A stretch of DNA of 12,171 nt from a virus (Duplodnaviria; Heunggongvirae; Uroviricota; Caudoviricetes). Under the pieces are notes generated by a model that ran no database searches, was not told the DNA's origin, and saw only the letters and a program-made list of their open reading frames with translations. How positions within the stretch are numbered: the first letter of the stretch is position 1; every line of letters starts with the position of its first letter. Shown in pieces: positions 2,345 to 11,930 of this stretch. The stretch lies in the IMG/VR virus record IMGVR_UViG_3300029219_000167, one strand, 5' to 3'. A program made the position numbers and the translations under genes.

Positions 2345-2920
2345 CTACGGCAGTGCTGGCCATTCAATATCCTGTGCAGTTGATGTATCAACACGGTTCA
2401 GCAACACCCGATACTTTTTCCAGGCTTCCAGCAATGAGGTTTCTTCCTCCGTTGCGATTTCCAGATCTACAGCATCCTGAAGTGGCGCTATATGCTCACT
2501 GGCTACCTGCATCAGGCTGTTTTTTGTTTCTTCCGCCTCCCGGATCCGGAACAGTTTTTCTGCTTCCGTATCCTTCACCCAGACTGTACCGTTCCACTTC
2601 TGAAACTCCCCTTCCGGCGATAACCAGGTAACATTTTCCGGTAACGGACCGAGTTCAGAAATAAATAACGCGTCGCCGGAAGCCACGTCATAAACCATTT
2701 TACCCCGATGATCTTCAACGAGATGCCACGATGACTCATCACTGTTGAAAACAGCCACGAAGCCAGCCGGAATATCTGGCGGTGCAATATCGGTACTGTT
2801 TGCTGGCAGACCTGTATGAGGCGGAATATATGCATCACCTTCACCAATAAATTCATTAGTTCCGGCCAGCAGATTATAAATTTTTATGGTCCGTGGTTGT
2901 TCACTCATTCTGAATGCCAT
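2345..2920 (-). CDS. tfaQ: Tail fibre assembly protein (Tfa chaperone), 191 aa
   Basis: 191-aa ORF directly downstream of stf, as in lambda stf-tfa. Its ATG (2920..2918) shares one nucleotide with the stf TAA stop (TAATG overlap), suggesting translational coupling. Sequence consistent with TfaR/TfaQ of K-12 from memory. Confidence 0.88.
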
Positions 2921-5900
2921 TATGCAAGCCTCACAATATAGTTAAATGCGATGTTTTTGACGGTGTTTTCCGCGTTACCAGCAGCGTTAACGGTGATGGT
3001 GTGTCCATGTGAACCAATCGCAACGGAGTGCGTATGAGCACCAATACCCACAGTATGTGCGTGTGCACCTGCGCTTGCAGCAGTACCCGATACAGAGTGC
3101 GTATGAGCGCCTGCAGAAGAAGTGTTAACACTGTATTTAGAATAATCAGATGCTCCACTTCCCGGAGCACCACTGGAACCACCTGAAACAAATGTCATCG
3201 AATGGGTATGTGCACCGGCTGAAGCAGCCGTACCGCTAACACTATGGGTATGCGCCCCGGTGTTATTCGTGGATTTAGTGCCGTAATCAAACGACGATGT
3301 GGTTTTCGTCCCCAAATCCGTACTGGATGCGCTGGCGCTGTGGGTATGCGATTTAATGCCGTCCTGTTCCTGAGACAATACGGCCCGACCACTGGCAGGT
3401 TTGCCCTTAATCGTCCAGCCACGCATATCAGGGATCACGCCTGACGGATAAGCGGCTGCAAGTTTCGGGTAAGCAGATTTGTCAAAAGTCTGCCCCTGCA
3501 TCAGGGCATAACCAGACGGAACGGTATCTGATGGCCACGGGATTGGTGCGCCGACTGGGTAGCTTTCTGGTGGAAGATTTTTCGAGGTATAAACTTCTGC
3601 CCAGTCTTCCTCAAAACCATAACCGTCTCTTGAAGAACGGTAGAACAGACCACCATTTCTGTAATGCGCCTTCATCTGCAAGGTCCGGCAACTTCCGACT
3701 CCGGTATAGAAGTTAACCAGAATATAGCTGTCGCCAGAGCGGGTGACATTGTAAGCACCTGATTCGGCATTCCAGGGAACGCCACCATCCGCATCGGCAT
3801 ATGTATCCGTTGCCCTTCTGGCAAAAGCAGCCACATGCGCGGCGGTTAAAGTAATATCTCTGGAACCATCAAACTCAACACCAGAAACCAGTCTTGGCGT
3901 TTGCAGCTTTGTTGCTGTTAATGCATTACCGTTCAGACTTGCGGACAGTTTGGTTCCAATAACCAGTTCGCCGGTTGCGTTATAAATAGCAAACGGTCTT
4001 AATGTATTCCAGCCACCATAAACATCACCTTGATTGGTAAGCAGCAGGTAAGTTTTAGCGCCATCATTACGCCATAATGCACCATACTCCCCACCTATCA
4101 TTCGAATCTGATTACCACCACGCGCTACAATTTCGTCTGTGGCAAAAAGTTTTTTGCACGACAAATTATCGTTAACGATTAACGAATGAGACTCATAAAA
4201 ACCACGCCCACTCTTAAAATCAAGGATAACGTCCGCCGCGATACATTCAGTCGCTGGATTTGTTGCCCCAAACTTATAGGTCGTATCATTAACAACGAGA
4301 TCAGCACCAGGTGCGGATATTGACAGGCCATCTTCGATAAACGCAAAAACAGGGAAAGCAGCGCCATCAACATAGAACACAGAGCGCAAATCATCGCCCT
4401 TATTACTCATCATTATTGAGTGGATGGCTCGTTCATTGTTTTGATATTGCCAGAACATTCCATAAGCATAACGCCCCCTGTCAGTCCAGCCACCAGGCAT
4501 AACAAATCCGTTAAACTCGCAGTTATTCATCGGATCGCCTGCGGTTCGCGTTGCCGTGGTGATAATGACCCTTGATGCCAGTTCGCTTACTGAGCCAGCA
4601 GAACGCATAACAACAACAGGGTAATATTTTCCAGATGTTGCACCTGCAGGAGCGTTAACCCGCACATAACGCATACCACGCTTATCAGCAAAGTCTGTTT
4701 TACTGACCGCGTTAATGTTGTTCAGGAAGCGTCCCTTATCGGGTATATCAGCGCCGTTCTGGTCTTTCTGCAGACGTTTCTCTGCATTGTCATAGGCTGA
4801 TTTTACTGCCTTTGGCGTTGCCGCCAGCGTTTCAGACGTACTGTTGGTCGCACTGCTGAGCTGTACTATCCCCTTTTTCGTCGTGCTCGCATCCTCAAGC
4901 GCCACGGCGGATGCAATATCCTCTGCCCGTTTTGCCGCTGTCTCGGCGCGCGTTGCCGCGGATTCCGCCGTACTTTTGCTCTGTGCTGCCGCCGTCGCAC
5001 TGCCAGCTGCCTCTGTCGCCTTCGTGGATGCTGTCGTGGCGCTGCCCTTCGCTGCTGACGCCTGTCTGGTCGCCTCATCTTTTGAAGCAGACGCCGATGA
5101 TGCCGATGACGCCGCCGAACTGGCTGACGATGCGGCAGCCGTTTTTGAGGATTCTGCGCTGGTTTCCGACGCTTTCGCGTTCGTTTCGGATGTCTTCGCT
5201 GCGGAAGCAGAACTCGCTGCTGCGCTGGCCTGTTCAGTGGCTTCGCCAGCCTTCGTTGTGGCTGTTGAAGCGGATGATGCGGCGCTTTCTGCCGATTTTC
5301 CGGCGGCGGTGGCACTGGCTGAGGCCTGCCCGGCACTTGTTGACGCGGCGCTGGCAGATGATGCAGCCGCTGTTTTTGAGCCTGCCGCAGCTGAGGCGCT
5401 CTGTCCCGCTGCCGTCTCAGAAGACTTAGCGTTCGTCTCGGACGTTTTTGCCGCCTTCGCGGAATTTCCTGCCGCCGTTGCCGAGGAAGTTGCGCTACTG
5501 GCGCTCGAGGATGCGTTCGTTTCTGATGATTTCGCTGCCTCTTTTGAGGCCGCCGCATCCCGGGCTGAGGTGGCAGCTTCTGACGCTTTCGTGGTCGCGG
5601 TGGATGCAGAAGTGGCTGCTGATTGTTGTGACGCTGCGGCATTCGTTTCTGACGTTTTCGCGGCACTGGCACTGGTAGCTGCCGCGCTTTTTGAGGACTC
5701 TGCAGCAGCAGCACTTTTCGATGCTTCACTGACCTTTGTTGATGCCGTTCCTGCGCTGGAAGACGCTGACTGAGCCGACGACGCGGCCTGTCCGGCTGAC
5801 GTGCTGGCTGCGCGTGCTGAGCCTGCAGCATCAGTCGCATGGGTTGCCGCCTCACGGGCTGATGTGCCGGCATCGCCGGCTGACTTCTTCGCGGCTGCCG

Positions 5901-7001: not shown

Positions 7002-9458
7002 TCAGCTGATACTGATGCCTGCGGTGGCTTTCTTCATCACCACAACCAGCAAATCGCTGATACTTGCTGTGGGATACCAGTCATTTACCAGCCATGCTGA
7101 CACCGAAAACTCCAGCGTCATGTGGCCGTGACCAGCTGGCATATCAATAACACCACTGTAAATCAGCGTATTATCCAGCGCGGTACGGTTATAAATTTCA
7201 GCACCATTTTTCTTCACTATCAGGCGGCATGAGGAGTAAATATCAGTATGCTCTCTCTCATGTTTAGCACCGCTGAATGCCACCGCCGGAATAACAATCT
7301 GCCGGTCAAACGGCTGATCGTCATAAATCCTGACGGTAATGGTCCCTGATGGCCACCGCTCCGGTGCCCGGGAGTCCCGCGGGAAAGCCTTACCCACTGT
7401 TTTGACAATATCGCCTTCAATCTGGTTGGCTGACAGTTTCCCTTTAATCTGACAGTTTTCATTTATCGTAACGTTGTTGAGCGTCCCGGCGTTCGCATTC
7501 ACACTGCCACTGATATCTGCATTTTTAGCGGTCAGCTTTCCGTCCGGTGTCAGGGAAAATGCAGGAGGATTACCGCCGCTGGTAATGGTGGGAGCCGTCA
7601 GATATTTCAGGAACACTTCATTCATGAATATCTGATCACCCTGACCAACAAACATCGGTTTTGTGTTGCCATTTGCAGGATTAATCATCGCAATCCTGTC
7701 TGCCGCCAGCAGCACCTGACTCTGCATGCCGTCGGGGGTGTTCTCAATACCGGCACCGATACCCGCAATATAAAGGCGTCCGTCCTGCATCTGCTGCAGC
7801 TTCACAGCCCACATGCTGTTCAGATTATTATTTGTATCAACCTGAACCTTCTGTATCTGCTGGATCGCTGCACTCTGGTCTTCCAGTTTCTTATTGACGG
7901 TCTGTGTGATTTCATTGCTGACATCCGTAATGGATGTCCTGATTTCAGCCAGGTCAGGCGCAAGCTGACCGTTATCAATCTGCGTCCACAGCTCCTGAGC
8001 CAGATGGGTTTTCCCTATCTCGCCTTTGAAAAAATCCAGATAGCCGGATGCGTCATCACTCGGCTGACCAACAGCCTCCACGAATGCCGATTTGCCAACG
8101 GTGTTCACACTGCGAACGTAAAAATAATAATTATGGCCCGGCCTGATATTGATACTGGCGGCTATCCAGTACAGCGCCGTGCCAAGATAGCGTGCTGTGG
8201 TTTCAACCTGCCTGATATCCGCAATCCGCTTTTCCGAGAACCAGAACTCAAACTGTACCGTCGGATCATAAACCGCAAGATGCGGCGTGGCGGTTATCTG
8301 AAAATAGCCCGGCGTCAGCTCAATCCGCGACGGCGCTGCCGGTGCGGCAATCCGGAACGATACCGACGCCGGATCGCCCTGCTGCCCCCACGCATTTACC
8401 GCCCGGACTGTCAGCCTGTAGTTCCCCAGAGCCAGTTGTGTGAAGCGGTAAGTGGTTTCCGTCGTCCGGGCCGTGCTGACCAGCCGCTCACTGCCGTCAT
8501 CCGCTGCCACGGTCAGGCGAAGCAGGAAGCTCACGCCCTTCACCACCTTCGGCGTGTCCCAGCGGGCCAGCACCTGGTATTCCCCGCTGTCTGCAGTGAC
8601 TTCTGCGGTCAGGTGCTGCACCGCTGGCGGCGTGACACCGTTCACCGTGCCACTCTGTTCGCCGTCAAAGTGCGCCCCGTTATCCACGATGACCTCTTTT
8701 TCCGGCACATGCTGCACGGCGGTGATGGCATACGTGCCGTCGTCGTTCTCACGGATACTCACGCAGCGGAACAGTCGCTGGCGCAGCCTCGGCAGCTTCA
8801 GCCCCCATACGCTGTATTCAGCAACACCGTCAGGAACACGGCTCACTTTCACCTTCACGCCGTCGGTGACGGACTGAACCTCCACGCTGACCGGATTGCC
8901 ACTTCCGTCAACCAGGCTTATCAGCGTGGTACCGGAGGATGGCAGCCAGGATATCAGTTCATCCAGCGCGGCTGCTTTGTTCATGGCTTTGATGATATCC
9001 CGTTTCAGGAAATCAACATGTCGGTTTTCCAGTTCCGGAAAACGCCGCTGCACCGACAGGGGGATCCCGTCGAGAATACTGGCAATTTCACCTGCGATCC
9101 GCGACAGCACGAAAGTACAGAATGCGGTTTCCACCACTTCAGCGGAGTCTCTGGCATTCTTCAGTTCCTGTGCGTCGGCCTGCGCACGCGTAAGTCGATG
9201 GCGTTCGTACTCAATAGTCCCTGGCTGGAGATCTGCCTCGCTGGCCTGCCGCAGTTCTTCAACTTCCCGGCGCAGCTTTTCGTTCTCAATTTCAGCATCC
9301 CTTTCGGCATACCATCTTATAACGGCGGCAGAGTCATAAAGCACCTCATTACCCTTGCCACCGCCTCGCAGAACGGGCATTCCCTGTTCCTGCCAGTTCT
9401 GAATGGTACGGATACTCGCACCGAAAATGTCAGCCAGCTGCTTTTTGTTGACTTCCAT
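7002..9458 (-). CDS. Chimeric deletion-fusion ORF, 818 aa: N-terminal ~169 aa of terminase small subunit Nu1 (nohQ-like) fused in frame to C-terminal ~650 aa of tail-tip protein J
   Basis: Residues 1-169 ([46 protein letters not shown]...[13 protein letters not shown]) are near-identical to lambda Nu1 as I recall it, including the winged-HTH DNA-binding domain. From about plus position 8951 the frame continues as ...[49 protein letters not shown]... matching the lambda J C-terminal half through ...[16 protein letters not shown]. Junction is in frame, so roughly 19 kb of head and tail genes (Nu1 3' end, A through I, J 5' half) are absent. Confidence 0.85.
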
Positions 9459-9480
9459 TGTTCATTCCACGGCCAAAAAC

Positions 9481-9665
9481 AGAGAAAGGAAACGACAGAG
9501 GCCCAAAAGCTCGTTTTCAGCACCTGTCGTTTCCTTTCTTTTCAGGGGGTATTTTAAATAAAAACATTAAGTTACAACGAAGAAGAACGGAAACGCCTTA
9601 AACCGGAAAATTTTCATAAATAGCGAAAACCCGCGAGGTCGCCGCCCCGTAACCTGTCGGATCGC
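9481..9665 (-). other. Lambda-type cos site: cosB (R1, R2, R3 terminase-binding repeats with AT-rich IHF-site region), cosN and cosQ
   Basis: Reverse complement of 9636-9647 is GGGCGGCGACCT, the lambda 12-nt cohesive end. R-site-like repeats at 9481-9498 (AGAGAAAGGAAACGACAG), 9524-9538 (CTGTCGTTTCCTTTC, inverted) and 9580-9598 (GAAGAAGAACGGAAACGCC). 9648-9663 reverse-complements to GATCCGACAGGTTACG, the lambda right-end (cosQ-side) sequence. Spacing to the Nu1 start matches lambda. Confidence 0.85.
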
Positions 9666-9846
9666 CGGAAAGGACCCGCAAAATGATAATAATTATCATC
9701 TGCATGTCACAACGTGCATCTACGCCATCAAACCACGTCAAATAATCAATTATGACGCAGATATCGTATTAATTGATCTGCATCAACTTAACGTAAAAAC
9801 AACTTCAGACAATACAAATCAGCGACACTGAATACGGGACAACCTC

Positions 9847-10080
9847 ATGTCAACGAAGAACAGAACCCGCAGAACAACAACCCGCAACATCCGCTTTCCT
9901 AACCAAATGATTGAACAAATTAACATCGCTCTTGAGCAAAAAGGGTCCGGGAATTTCTCAGCCTGGGTCATTGAAGCCTGCCGCCGGAGACTGTGCTCAG
10001 AAAAAAGAGTTTCTTCTGAAGCAAACAAAGAAAAGAGTGACATTACTGAATTGCTCAGAAAACAGGTCAGACCAGATTGA
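9847..10080 (+). CDS. ynfO: YnfO/YlcI-family small prophage protein, 77 aa, possible ribbon-helix-helix DNA-binding fold
   Basis: MSTKNRTRRTTTRNIRFPNQMIEQINIALEQKGSGNFSAWVIEACRRRL...: basic N-terminus, then a strand-helix-helix pattern typical of Arc/CopG-like proteins. Same position relative to cos/Nu1 as K-12 ynfO in Qin. The RHH assignment is inference. Confidence 0.7.
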   Translation: MSTKNRTRRTTTRNIRFPNQMIEQINIALEQKGSGNFSAWVIEACRRRLCSEKRVSSEANKEKSDITELLRKQVRPD

Positions 10081-10137
10081 AGCAATTTAGATAATCGTGC
10101 AGACTACGCCCCCTCATATCACATGGAAGGTTTATCT

Positions 10138-10548
10138 ATGGATCAGGTAGTCATTTTTAAACAAATATTTGATAAAGTTCGAAACGATTTAAACTATCAA
10201 TGGTTTTATTCTGAGCTAAAACGTCACAATGTCTCACATTACATTTACTATTTAGCCACAGAGAATGTTCATATTGTATTAAAAAATGATAATACAGTGT
10301 TATTAAAGGGCCTAAAAAACATTGTGTCTGTCAAATTTTCAAAGGATAGGCATCTTATAGAAACGACCTCTAATAAGCTGAAATCCAGAGAGATCACATT
10401 TCAGGAATACAGAAGAAACCTTGCTAAAGCAGGAGTTTTTCGGTGGGTTACAAATATCCACGAACAAAAAAGATATTACTATACCTTTGATAATTCATTA
10501 CTATTTACTGAAAGCATCCAGAAAACTACACAGATCTTACCACGCTAA
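10138..10548 (+). CDS. ydfO: YdfO-family protein (DUF1398-like), 136 aa from the preferred start
   Basis: ORF-track start at 10123 (MEGLSMDQ...) lacks a Shine-Dalgarno; ATG 10138 is preceded by GGAAGG (10126-10131, 6-nt spacer). Protein [40 protein letters not shown]... recalled as Qin prophage YdfO. Confidence 0.75.
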
Positions 10549-10699
10549 ACCATAACGTCCGGCTTCTCTCACTCCTGAGCCGGACTGCATTGGTTTAATA
10601 AAAACCATCAACAATTGTGATTTAGATATTCGGAACCATTCAAATATAACAAAACCCCGTAAAAACGAGGTTTATGGATAAATTTTATTATTGAATACA

Positions 10700-10873
10700 T
10701 CAGATTAAATTAATCTTGACATCATAGCTTTCAAGACCCGTCATTTTTTCCCGTGCGGTAAACTGAATACTGGTAACTTCTTTCCCGGTCTTTTTCTTAA
10801 GTTCAATAATTTTTTTTGTTATATATTCAGAAATATCTGCTTCTGCTTTTGTTTTTAAGTTTTCAATATTCAT
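10700..10873 (-). CDS. gnsB: GnsB-like small protein, 57 aa (GnsA/GnsB family)
   Basis: Not in the ORF track (under size cutoff). Minus-strand translation MNIENLKTKAEADISEYITKKIIELKKKTGKEVTSIQFTAREKMTGLESYDVKINLI; AAGAGGAA Shine-Dalgarno 5 nt upstream of the second of two tandem ATGs (10873). Resembles K-12 GnsA/GnsB from memory. Confidence 0.7.
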   Translation of the reverse strand: MNIENLKTKAEADISEYITKKIIELKKKTGKEVTSIQFTAREKMTGLESYDVKINLI

Positions 10874-11044
10874 CATTTCCTCTTTTAGTCTGTTATGACT
10901 TTCCAGTTACACAGTAAGTCGATTATATGGTGCAAACGTGTAAAAGATAAGATGAAACATCGCAATAATCAACATACGATAGTCTAAATTTTACACAAAC
11001 AGACAAAGAGAATTTTCCTGAATTATCAATGCAATAGCATCAAA

Positions 11045-11275
11045 TCAACTCAAGAGCCTTATTGCTGCTTCCAGAATTTCTTCTGAAGTAACATGTCGAT
11101 CCGCGGCTACATAAATGACTTTATGATCTCCGGTCAGAGATGGAAACCCTGCGGCCATTACAGTAAGGTGTGTTTTTTCGCCATTTGGATATTCACGCAT
11201 GATGGTGTTAACTCCAGTCATCGCTGGCACTACCACTGCTGGTTCAGAGTTAAAAAAAACTATGATTTTTTTCAT
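11045..11275 (-). CDS. ynfN: YnfN-family prophage protein; 76 aa if started at MKKIIVFF, 51-aa core if started at 11200
   Basis: C-terminal 51 aa (MREYPNGEKTHLTVMAAGFPSLTGDHKVIYVAADRHVTSEEILEAAIRLLS) correspond to K-12 YnfN as I recall it. The frame stays open upstream through MKKIIVFFNSEPAVVVPAMTGVNTI (ATG 11275) and further to 11317. No strong Shine-Dalgarno at any candidate start, so the start is uncertain. Confidence 0.55.
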   Translation of the reverse strand: MKKIIVFFNSEPAVVVPAMTGVNTIMREYPNGEKTHLTVMAAGFPSLTGDHKVIYVAADRHVTSEEILEAAIRLLS

Positions 11276-11320
11276 GATGTTACCGTAGTATGTGAGTATC
11301 CATCGAATAGACACCAAGCC

Positions 11321-11345: not shown

Positions 11346-11546
11346 TTTCACTTTTTTAAATCCAACGACAGACGGCTGGCATTTAAGTATTGTGAAATAT
11401 TATCAAATGTAATCATCATTGATTTACAAAAGATACATTTTGCCCCGAAAGGATTCATGTCAGAAACATCAAAAGATGATGTTCTATACTGGGAACCATG
11501 ACAACACGGGCATCTAAAGTGAATATGGTTTGTAATATTGTCTACC

Positions 11547-11759
11547 TCAAAGCGCCACTACATGAACAGCGGCAGGACCTTTAGGTCCGTTCTCAATACC
11601 AAATTCAACTTCCTGATTCTCAGTTAATGTTTTGAAATCGTTGCTCTGAATTGCTGAGAAATGGACAAACACATCTTTGCTGCCATCTTTCGGCGTGATG
11701 AAACCAAAACCTTTTTCAGGGTTAAACCATTTTACTAAACCAGTCATTTTGTTAGACAT
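11547..11759 (-). CDS. cspI: Cold-shock protein CspI (CspA family, S1-like cold-shock domain), 70 aa
   Basis: [70 protein letters not shown] carries the RNP1 (KGFGFI) and RNP2 (VFVHF) motifs; AAGG Shine-Dalgarno about 7 nt upstream of ATG 11759. Confidence 0.92.
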
Positions 11760-11930
11760 AATTATTACCTTTTGAAGAAATTAGCCCTTGGGCAGAATGG
11801 TCCGAAAAAAAATATCAGAGAGAAAAACCAACAAGGAAATCTCAAGAGGTACAAATAATAAAATTATAACAATGACTGCTTCAGATAAATTTGTAACAAA
11901 CCAGAACACCATTAACGCATGATTAACCAC
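11760..11930 (-). promoter_or_regulatory. Probable long AT-rich 5' UTR and promoter region of cspI (cold-shock-type leader)
   Basis: CspA-family genes typically have leaders of about 160 nt; about 335 bp of AT-rich non-coding DNA separates the cspI ATG from the IS1 end. Promoter and cold-box positions not determined; boundaries approximate. Confidence 0.35.

What the first reader, a model, noticed from the sequence alone, without database searches (positions are those of the whole stretch)
9847..10548. ynfO-ydfO two-gene module directly beside cos
A 77-aa basic protein with an apparent ribbon-helix-helix pattern is followed 57 bp later by a 136-aa protein of unknown function, in the moron slot next to cos. 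The layout resembles small regulator-plus-effector modules (toxin-antitoxin-like or anti-defence), but no function is established from the sequence.
Basis: inference. Interest (0 to 1): 0.45.

Follow-up and report, generated by a model that had tools for sequence, protein, structure and literature searches.

The report
Two unlinked prophage genes beside cos
The two small genes next to the DNA-packaging site of this defective lambda-like E. coli prophage are the already named ynfO and ydfO; they are real, conserved genes, but they are independent accessory genes, not a regulator-plus-effector or toxin-antitoxin pair.

Summary
ynfO (9847-10080, 77 aa, pI 10.6) and ydfO (10138-10548, 136 aa) lie 57 bp apart on the + strand. 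They start 200 bp from the lambda-type cos site and point against the late operon.

Both are known. YnfO is a YlcI/YnfO (DUF3950) protein. YdfO is DUF1398 and 135/136 identical to the solved structure 2HH8. Phage lambda carries the same pair, split by a third gene.

The "module" reading fails its own test:
- 38 divergent YnfO homologues have no DUF1398 gene within 6 kb.
- 153 phage records carry YnfO, only 43 carry YdfO.
- EHEC genomes sampled have 8-12 ynfO copies; EDL933 has one ydfO-like gene.
- DUF1398 genes such as ycgX stand alone.
- No toxin or defence family matches either protein.

YnfO is probably a ribbon-helix-helix-type DNA binder. Most relatives sit in PICI/P4-like satellites, divergent from the primase operon. 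They lie behind arrays of GTG-N6-CAC operators whose centres co-vary with the four residues before the invariant I-R-F strand.

Its target in Qin and lambda was not found. YdfO's biochemical function remains unknown.

Verdict: an ordinary, already annotated locus.

The parts
9636..9647 (-). cosN 12-nt cohesive-end sequence (reverse complement GGGCGGCGACCT). The lambda right end begins at window 9648.
   Evidence: Sequence. Blastn to the lambda right end starts at window 9648. The lambda end sequence itself is from established knowledge.
9671..9677 (-). cosQ heptamer (reverse complement GGGTCCT), corresponding to lambda 48473-48479.
   Evidence: Sequence and coordinate mapping. The identity of cosQ rests on my own knowledge of the lambda literature, not on a tool result.
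9679..9697 (+). Fur box, 16/19 match to GATAATGATAATCATTATC. It is the published 'nohA' Fur site and lies about 150 bp upstream of the ynfO ATG (9847).
   Evidence: One match with 3 mismatches; 0 of 200 shuffles gave any. Chen et al. 2007 report gel shift and earlier in vivo selection of a Fur site 233 bp upstream of nohA in Qin (PMC2189734). 9458 + 233 = 9691.
9683..9710 (-). Sigma-70-like promoter match (GTGACA, 16 nt, TATCAT; 10/12) pointing towards cos and nohA and overlapping the Fur box.
   Evidence: Consensus scan. This is a match only, not shown to be active.
9745..9785 (.). Interleaved inverted repeats (ATCAATTA...TAATTGAT and GCAGAT...ATCTGC) in the ynfO upstream region. They are candidate regulatory sites only.
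   Evidence: Repeat search. They are conserved in lambda apart from one G/A difference in a repeat arm, but lambda is 95% identical here, so this carries little weight.
9847..10080 (+). ynfO, 77 aa, YlcI/YnfO family (DUF3950). The conserved DNA-binding core is codons 1-54 (9847-10008).
10010..10063 (+). Junction segment. These 54 bp replace 613 bp of lambda that include lambdap79/ybcW. They encode most of the non-conserved YnfO tail; the last six codons come from the ydfO leader.
   Evidence: Blastn of the window against lambda: blocks 9648-10009 and 10064-10567 match L001 1-362 and 976-1480.
10061..10077 (+). PdhR box AACAGGTCAGACCAGAT (10/14 to consensus) at the 3' end of ynfO, upstream of ydfO.
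   Evidence: Sequence. The genomic SELEX site listed between ynfO and ydfO is in PMC7660256.
10064..10137 (+). The ydfO leader, conserved with lambda and DLP12. It holds the PdhR box, a GATAAT -10-like hexamer at 10090-10095 and the Shine-Dalgarno GGAAGG at 10125-10130.
   Evidence: (84% identity block) and sequence inspection. The promoter assignment is inference.
10138..10548 (+). ydfO, 136 aa, DUF1398, 135/136 identical to PDB 2HH8.
10557..10585 (+). Strong stem-loop just after the ydfO stop codon, without a canonical U-run. It is a probable 3' end or stabiliser of the ydfO transcript.
   Evidence: RNA fold: -21.7 kcal/mol, z = -5.65, 0 of 200 shuffles as stable. Its start is conserved in lambda.

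Best explanation
These are two separate accessory genes of a lambdoid prophage. They occupy the variable segment between the lysis cassette and cos and are read against the late operon.

YnfO:
- It is a small basic DNA-binding protein. Its conserved 50-residue core (strand T-T-R-N-I-R-F-P, helix, G-S-G-N-F-S turn, helix) most likely forms a ribbon-helix-helix dimer that reads DNA with its N-terminal strand.
- In most of its family the gene sits alone on the opposite strand in PICI/P4-like satellites, directly divergent from the primase operon.
- There it lies behind two to four GTG-N6-CAC operators, which is the arrangement of an autoregulated repressor.
- By analogy, YnfO in Qin and lambda probably binds in the cos-ynfO spacer and represses its own promoter, the divergent promoter, or both. 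Its operator there was not identified.
- Residues 55-77 of this YnfO are a by-product of a deletion or replacement junction.

YdfO:
- It is a stand-alone DUF1398 protein with its own conserved leader and 3' hairpin. It is probably expressed in the lysogen from its own promoter.
- Its biochemical activity is unknown.

Shown here: gene identity, family membership, purifying selection, lack of co-conservation, the satellite context, the operator arrays and the strand-operator covariation.

Inferred: the ribbon-helix-helix fold, repressor action, any action of YnfO in Qin, and independent transcription of ydfO.
For: Identity:
- Pfam, NCBIfam and PDB matches.
- 100% DNA identity to annotated ynfO/ydfO in E. 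coli ECONIH5, and matches in 4841 of 5426 complete E. coli genomes.
- Lambda carries the same genes at its right end.

Independence of the two genes:
- 0 of 38 divergent YnfO loci have a DUF1398 or Nu1 gene within 6 kb.
- tblastn on phage records finds YnfO in 153 and YdfO in 43.
- Stx phages have Rz, then YnfO, then HNH-TerS-TerL, with no YdfO.
- Sampled O157/O111 genomes carry 8-12 ynfO copies, while O157:H7 EDL933 has one ydfO-like place.
- DUF1398 occurs without YnfO at bluR-ycgX-iraM, in an ATCC 25922 prophage, and in Klebsiella and Salmonella.
- Lambda has 613 bp and the opposite-strand lambdap79 between the two genes.
- A PdhR SELEX site lies in the ydfO leader.

YnfO as a DNA binder:
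- Satellite context is int (28 loci), AlpA (20), AntA/Rha/Bro, then YnfO on the opposite strand, small ORFs, and a Toprim/D5_N primase (20). It is divergent from the upstream neighbour in 30 of 37 loci.
- GTG-N6-CAC is 63-fold enriched in the 130 nt upstream, with sites most often near -99, -76 and -30, or at matching offsets.
- Operator centres correlate with the four residues before I-R-F (partial Mantel r = 0.57, p = 2e-4). They do not correlate with the two helices (r = 0.09, p about 0.1).
- The AF2 model shows an extended segment 13-18, a helix 19-32 and a helix from 37.
- hhalign z-scores are 3.7 for Arc and 5.4 for the NikR N-domain, in register.
- Two family members fuse DUF3950 to the TerS-type helix-turn-helix.

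Constraint: dN/dS is 0.09 for ynfO and 0.18 for ydfO.
Against: - Pfam RHH models and a family profile against PDB found nothing significant.
- The Qin and lambda spacer contains no GTG-N6-CAC array. The only one-mismatch site (9714) is not conserved in lambda. Repressor action in this phage context is therefore unproven.
- No sigma-70-like promoter for ynfO passed the scan.
- In Qin the 57-bp gap has no terminator, so ynfO and ydfO may be co-transcribed here even though they are not a conserved unit.
- The strand-operator covariation cannot fully exclude linkage with another regulator of the same islands.
Confidence: 0.62

Rival explanations
1. ynfO-ydfO is one operon in which the DNA-binding YnfO regulates the effector YdfO, and the pair acts together in phage exclusion, anti-defence or stress response.
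For: The two genes share a strand and are 57 bp apart with no predicted terminator between them. Within lambda- and Qin-type phages the two genes are usually both present. The region does interact with defence, because the lambda gene lying between them (lambdap79) activates the Vulcan system.
Against: Co-occurrence is confined to one roughly 85-95% identical DNA block, so it reflects shared descent. It is absent elsewhere. In lambda and DLP12 an opposite-strand gene separates the two. ydfO has its own conserved leader with a PdhR site. Neither protein hits PADLOC.
Confidence: 0.12
2. The pair is a type II toxin-antitoxin module, with YnfO as a ribbon-helix-helix antitoxin and YdfO as the toxin.
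For: The gene order (small DNA binder first, larger protein second) and the prophage location resemble toxin-antitoxin loci.
Against: The pair is not co-conserved. YdfO has no similarity to any toxin family. Stand-alone DUF1398 genes such as ycgX are common. YdfO was over-produced in E. coli for the NMR structure 2HH8, which argues against strong toxicity; that last step is inference. The YnfO tail that would have to neutralise a toxin is junction-derived and not conserved.
Confidence: 0.03
3. YnfO is a packaging-site accessory factor. It binds near cos and modulates terminase action, or protects or insulates the packaging start.
For: YnfO is the last gene before the packaging module, always on the opposite strand, in phages with two unrelated terminase systems: Nu1/A in lambda and Qin, and HNH-TerS-TerL in Stx phages, where it is only 41 bp from HNH. 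Two family representatives fuse DUF3950 to the N-terminal DNA-binding part of Terminase_2 TerS. It is also listed among the genes of capsid-forming PICIs that encode TerS and TerL.
Against: Most family members lie in satellites next to a primase operon, and no cos sequence was found close to the gene. To my knowledge lambda packaging needs no such factor, and this is not a tool result. The gene runs antisense to the late transcript. CRISPRi tested only the neighbouring genes, not the lambda ylcI-like ORF.
Confidence: 0.1
4. In this defective prophage the two genes are passengers with no present function. They are retained only because the region recombines freely among lambdoid prophages.
For: The prophage is crippled: Nu1 is fused in frame to the C-terminal part of J. 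The YnfO tail is a junction product. The lambda YdfO homologue is dispensable for lytic growth. Lambda readily exchanges this segment with Qin.
Against: Both genes are under purifying selection across lineages. ydfO is transcribed and strongly inducible in K-12. Fur and PdhR sites flank them.
Confidence: 0.12

Closest known systems
Phage lambda right end (unannotated ylcI-like ORF, lambdap79/ybcW, lambdap78/ybcV) and the DLP12 ylcI-ybcW-ybcV genes
   Same: The same two families sit in the same place and orientation beside cos. The DNA is 95% identical across cos and ynfO codons 1-54, and 84% identical across ydfO and its leader.
   Different: Lambda and DLP12 carry an extra 613 bp holding the opposite-strand ybcW/lambdap79 gene. 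The Qin type in this window replaces it with 54 bp, which gives YnfO a different 23-residue tail and brings the two genes to 57 bp apart. Lambda mutants that escape the Vulcan defence system appear to acquire exactly this Qin arrangement.
YlcI/YnfO (DUF3950) genes of PICI/P4-like satellites of Enterobacterales
   Same: The same conserved core is present (33-56% identity; I15, R16, F17, P18, F37, S38, W40, V41, A44 and C45 are invariant). In both settings the gene is a lone opposite-strand gene divergent from the main operon.
   Different: The satellites have GTG-N6-CAC operator arrays and a primase operon as neighbour. Qin and lambda have cos and Nu1 as neighbour and no recognisable array.
Arc and Mnt repressors of phage P22 and the NikR N-domain (ribbon-helix-helix superfamily)
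   Same: The size and pattern match: a basic N-terminus, an alternating strand ending in Pro, helix, a Gly-x-Ser/Asn turn, then helix. hhalign is in register with z 3.7 (Arc), 5.4 (NikR-N) and 2.3 (Mnt). The strand residues track operator sequence in relatives.
   Different: There is no significant HMM or fold-search match. The dimeric ribbon is not shown.
Lambda morons bor and lom
   Same: These are non-essential accessory genes embedded in the late region. Like bor, the pair runs opposite to late transcription and is variably present among relatives.
   Different: bor and lom encode envelope proteins with known phenotypes. YnfO and YdfO are cytoplasmic-looking proteins with no established phenotype.

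Membership tests
YlcI/YnfO family (Pfam DUF3950 PF13132; NCBIfam NF041551) | Score above the curated cut-offs of the family models | tested here: met
   PF13132 scores 75.6 bits against a cut-off of 25. NF041551 scores 36.6 bits against 30. PHROG 949 matches at E 6e-34.
DUF1398 / YdfO-like (PF07166) | Score above the Pfam cut-off and identity to the structural prototype | tested here: met
   157.7 bits against a cut-off of 22. 135/136 identical to PDB 2HH8.
Ribbon-helix-helix superfamily (Arc/MetJ/CopG) | Strand-helix-helix topology of about 45 residues | tested here: inconclusive
Ribbon-helix-helix superfamily (Arc/MetJ/CopG) | Detectable sequence or profile relation to known RHH proteins | tested here: inconclusive
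   hhalign of the family profile against sequences I recalled from memory gave Arc z 3.7, NikR-N z 5.4, Mnt 2.3 and ParG 2.3. Nine others were no better than shuffles. No RHH model appears in the Pfam scan. The PDB profile searches gave one CopG-family hit at E 0.65 and none at all.
Ribbon-helix-helix superfamily (Arc/MetJ/CopG) | Base recognition by the N-terminal strand | tested here: met
   This was tested in satellite relatives only. Operator centres co-vary with the four residues before I-R-F (partial Mantel r = 0.57, p = 2e-4) and not with the helices. It was not tested for the Qin protein itself.
Ribbon-helix-helix superfamily (Arc/MetJ/CopG) | Obligate dimer forming a two-stranded antiparallel ribbon | not testable with these tools
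   Only monomer prediction was available.
Type II toxin-antitoxin module | Adjacent, co-oriented antitoxin and toxin genes with a short gap or overlap | tested here: met
   Same strand, 57-bp gap. In lambda and DLP12, however, the gap is about 660 bp and holds an opposite-strand gene.
Type II toxin-antitoxin module | Co-conservation of the two partners across genomes | tested here: not met
   0 of 38 divergent YnfO loci have DUF1398 nearby. Phage records: 153 with YnfO, 43 with YdfO. DUF1398 stands alone in ycgX, ATCC 25922, Klebsiella and Salmonella.
Type II toxin-antitoxin module | Downstream protein belongs to a toxin family or is toxic | tested here: not met
   No toxin family appears in Pfam, NCBIfam or PADLOC. 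Toxicity itself cannot be tested here.
Known anti-phage defence systems (PADLOC-DB) | Match to a defence-system protein model | tested here: not met
   No hit at E <= 1 for YnfO, YdfO, GnsB or YnfN.
Phage moron / accessory gene | Non-essential, variably present among close relatives, inserted in the late region with its own orientation and signals | tested here: met
   Presence and absence vary among lambdoid phages. The lambda YdfO homologue is non-essential by CRISPRi. ydfO is transcribed and inducible in K-12. It has its own leader and 3' hairpin.

The most novel reading that the evidence does not exclude
YlcI/YnfO proteins are the type-specific master repressors of a large class of PICI/P4-like satellites of Enterobacterales. 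Each type would have its own strand residues and matching GTG-N6-CAC operators. The cos-proximal copy carried by lambda, Qin and Stx helper phages (strand T-T-R-N, closest to the common satellite type T-T-K-G) would then be a phage-borne homologue that cross-talks with satellite switches, for example by keeping a resident satellite silent or by having been captured from one. In that case the gene beside cos would be a player in phage-satellite conflict and not a partner of ydfO.
Probability: 0.12. Interest if true: 0.6.

Novelty: already known. Interest (0 to 1): 0.25.

Why it matters
For the window itself it matters little. Both genes are annotated E. coli K-12 'y' genes present in most E. 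coli genomes, and the proposed module does not hold.

The useful outcomes are negative and corrective:
- ynfO and ydfO should not be treated as a toxin-antitoxin or defence pair.
- The only phenotype attributed to YdfO in the literature seen here is a citation mix-up with YfdO.
- The Fur site long assigned to nohA lies equally upstream of ynfO.

The wider lead is the family-level result. DUF3950 proteins look like strand-reading repressors with type-specific operators in phage satellites. If confirmed, this would fill a gap, because to my knowledge no repressor has been assigned to the AlpA-type satellites of Gram-negative bacteria.

Tried and rejected
- AlphaFold model of YdfO from a shallow alignment: pLDDT 49.7, too poor to search with, so no fold search was run on it.
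- Family-profile searches of PDB gave one weak CopG-family hit (E 0.65) and then none. A Pfam scan of 51 members at E <= 10 returned no RHH family.
- PADLOC: no hits.
- The IMG/VR scan with YnfO returned only 96-100% identical Qin-type loci, which are useless for co-occurrence.
- The apparent 233-aa YnfO-YdfO 'fusion' protein (P0122, 761 members) has W at the TGA. I read it as a gene-calling artefact of an alternative genetic code, not a real fusion.
- Search for cos next to satellite YnfO genes: the only blastn hit of the cos region to a divergent locus was 35 bp in one Tatumella locus, about 700 bp away, and the scattered 12-mer cosN matches show no consistent position. Search for GTG-N6-CAC operators in the Qin spacer: only one one-mismatch site, not conserved in lambda.
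- Rfam scan of the window and four satellite loci: nothing in the ynfO-ydfO region or in the satellites.
- The reported oxidative-stress phenotype of YdfO (stated in PMC4077768) traces to Wang et al. 2010, whose text names YfdK, YfdO and YfdS of CPS-53 and never mentions ydfO. I rejected it as evidence.
- The 'head protein' (PHROG 413) and 'putative envelope protein' labels for YdfO homologues have no support in anything examined here.

Full report
**What the window is.** The window is a defective Qin-type lambdoid prophage of E. coli.
- The stretch 9459-10700 is 100% identical to the chromosome of strain ECONIH5, where the genes are annotated ynfO, ydfO and gnsB. Similar DNA occurs in 4841 of 5426 complete E. 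coli genomes.
- The gene order is ydfK, a pin invertase, tfa, a long stf, lom, an 818-aa in-frame fusion of Nu1 to the C-terminal part of J (7002-9458, - strand), cos, ynfO, ydfO, gnsB, ynfN and cspI.
- The cohesive-end sequence is at 9636-9647 and the cosQ heptamer at 9671-9677. From 9648 onward the DNA is 95% identical to the right end of phage lambda.

**The observation.** It is accurate.
- ynfO is 9847-10080 (77 aa, pI 10.55).
- ydfO is 10138-10548 (136 aa; an alternative ATG at 10123 gives 141 aa). The gap is 57 bp.
- YnfO is a clear member of DUF3950/YlcI_YnfO.
- YdfO is DUF1398 and 135/136 identical to the NMR structure 2HH8.
- Both are constrained. dN/dS is 0.09 for ynfO codons 1-49 against an Stx-phage copy and about 0.18 for ydfO against lambda.
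- The two ORFs share a frame with one TGA between them. A 233-aa 'fusion' cluster in the protein database has W at that codon, which I read as a gene-caller artefact.

**Relation to lambda.** Lambda carries the same pair at its right end.
- It has an unannotated 64-aa YlcI-like ORF, then lambdap79 (ybcW) on the other strand, then lambdap78 (the YdfO homologue).
- Alignment shows two homology blocks. Window 9648-10009 matches lambda locus 1-362, and window 10064-10567 matches 976-1480. In the window, 54 bp stand in place of 613 bp of lambda.
- A 2026 preprint reports that lambda mutants escaping the Vulcan defence system lose lambdap79, probably by recombining with Qin. That would give them the arrangement seen here.

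**Is the pair a conserved unit? It is not.**
- A scan of one genome per species with a family alignment gave 38 divergent YnfO loci, in Serratia, Pectobacterium, Xenorhabdus, Klebsiella, Proteus, Tatumella and others. None has a DUF1398 gene or a Nu1 gene within 6 kb.
- Among phage records, tblastn finds YnfO in 153 and YdfO in 43.
- Stx-converting phages have YnfO alone, 41 bp from a divergent HNH-TerS-TerL packaging module.
- In E. coli genomes the ynfO core occurs at 9861 places in 4184 genomes. ydfO-like DNA occurs at 8903 places in 5376 genomes. The sampled O157/O111 strains have 8-12 ynfO copies, while O157:H7 EDL933 has a single ydfO-like place.
- DUF1398 genes also stand alone: ycgX between bluR and iraM; a copy beside a DUF1441-type terminase in ATCC 25922; and chromosomal-type copies in Klebsiella and Salmonella.
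- Co-occurrence is therefore confined to one inherited DNA block.
- Neither protein matches a defence model or a toxin family.

**What YnfO probably is.** The family is small (120 representatives at 50% identity among 1.8 billion proteins), and its named members are almost all from Enterobacterales.
- *Context.* Most divergent members lie in islands with integrase (28 loci), AlpA (20), an AntA/Rha/Bro-type gene, then YnfO alone on the opposite strand, small ORFs, and a Toprim/D5_N primase (20 loci). This is the architecture of PICI/P4-like satellites. YnfO is divergent from its upstream neighbour in 30 of 37 loci. A recent survey lists YlcI/YnfO among the accessory genes of capsid-forming PICIs.
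- *Operators.* The 130 nt upstream of these genes carry two to four copies of GTG-N6-CAC, most often near -99, -76 and -30. That is a 63-fold enrichment over the rest of the loci.
- *Covariation.* The central six bases differ between islands and track the four residues that precede the invariant I-R-F. Examples are T-T-K-G with CAYAWA, x-Y-K-G with TTTAAA, A-K-K-N with TGCGCA and A-K-K-H with TGAACC. The partial Mantel r is 0.57 with p = 2e-4, while the two helices show no such relation (r = 0.09, p about 0.1). Several islands have near-identical helices but different strand residues and different operators.
- *Reading.* This is what a ribbon-helix-helix repressor reading DNA with its N-terminal strand would give.
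- *Direct fold evidence is weaker.* The AF2 monomer has the right topology. hhalign scores to Arc and NikR-N exceed all shuffles. No fold search or HMM search is significant.
- *Fusions.* Two family representatives fuse the domain to the DNA-binding N-terminus of a Terminase_2 small terminase.

**What YnfO does in Qin and lambda.** This remains inferred.
- The cos-ynfO spacer has no GTG-N6-CAC array.
- It does hold some inverted repeats.
- It also holds a Fur box (9679-9697). This is the published 'nohA' Fur site, bound in vitro and selected in vivo.
- The Fur box overlaps a promoter-like match pointing towards cos and nohA.
- YnfO is the last gene before the packaging module in phages with two unrelated terminases. 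This may reflect a role at that boundary, or only a favoured insertion slot.

**What YdfO is.** It is a stand-alone DUF1398 protein of unknown activity.
- Its 74-bp leader is conserved with lambda and contains a PdhR SELEX site. A stable hairpin follows the stop codon.
- ydfO mRNA is strongly induced by an ionic liquid in K-12. In DLP12 the homologous ybcV drops ten-fold in a pdhR mutant.
- The lambda homologue is non-essential.
- The claim that YdfO over-production protects against peroxide is a mix-up with YfdO of CPS-53.

**Verdict.** The locus is already known and ordinary. The family-level picture of DUF3950 as a satellite repressor is the only lead of wider interest, and it lies outside this window.

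Noticed in passing
window 9679-9710: A 16/19 Fur box sits 2 bp from cosQ and overlaps a leftward promoter-like match. It is the published 'nohA' Fur site (gel shift and in vivo selection). It lies about 150 bp upstream of ynfO, a gene that paper does not mention, so its true target gene is open.
   Followed up: partly
window 10061-10077: A PdhR box (AACAGGTCAGACCAGAT) lies at the 3' end of ynfO, inside the conserved ydfO leader. It is listed as a genomic SELEX site in PMC7660256.
   Followed up: partly
window 7002-9458 (- strand): An 818-aa ORF fuses the complete Nu1 small terminase domain (residues 1-164) in frame to the Ig-like, tail-tip and receptor-binding domains of J. A deletion has removed everything from gene A to the middle of J, so the prophage cannot make particles.
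   Followed up: partly
window 9847-10548; protein P0122: ynfO and ydfO are in the same frame with a single TGA between them. A database cluster of 761 sequences reads through it as W, giving a 233-aa protein. This is most likely alternative-code gene calling on short contigs.
   Followed up: yes
loci L089-L119, L136, L143 (genome contigs) and many 3.5-kb ENA contigs: Lambda right-end DNA, often as contigs of about 3.5 kb, appears in assemblies labelled Streptomyces, Cohnella, Flavobacterium, Staphylococcus, a spider and others. This is almost certainly sequencing-control contamination, and it spreads 'YlcI/YnfO' and 'DUF1398' annotations into unrelated taxa.
   Followed up: partly
loci L123-L162, 170 nt upstream of the YnfO-like genes: The satellite islands share a conserved G+C-rich hairpin followed by a T-rich tract (GCCCGGTTAGTG..CACTGCCGGGCTTCGCTATTT) just upstream of the operator array. 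An invariant CACGTCAA also follows the second operator. No Rfam family matches.
   Followed up: partly
proteins P0310, P0328: Two family representatives (129 and 120 aa) combine DUF3950 with the first 50 or so positions of the Terminase_2 small-terminase model. Their genomic context could not be looked up.
   Followed up: partly
locus L163 (Pasteurella 'phage' Pmp7) 4778-5032 +: The YnfO-like ORF is unannotated. The record instead calls a 224-aa opposite-strand ORF with no Pfam match a 'transcriptional repressor'. This is probably a strand or gene-call error in a PICI-like element.
   Followed up: partly
loci L132, L146, L148, L150 (Tatumella): Here the YnfO homologue is not in a satellite. 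It lies upstream of, and co-oriented with, a roughly 450-aa protein that looks like a membrane transporter and a second roughly 445-aa protein that looks like an aminotransferase; neither was scanned against Pfam. This suggests a domesticated regulator.
   Followed up: no
window 10700-10876 (-), 11045-11317 (-), 11520-11905 (-), 2379-2577 (-): gnsB matches the Pfam 'GnsA/GnsB toxin' family. ynfN has only PHROG matches. The cspI leader matches the Rfam cspA thermoregulator (115 bits). An Rfam IS009 RNA match (226 bits) lies inside tfa.
   Followed up: no
literature: PMC4077768 versus PMC3105296: The statement that YdfO over-expression raises oxidative-stress resistance cites a paper that actually reports YfdK, YfdO and YfdS of prophage CPS-53. 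ydfO is not mentioned there.
   Followed up: yes
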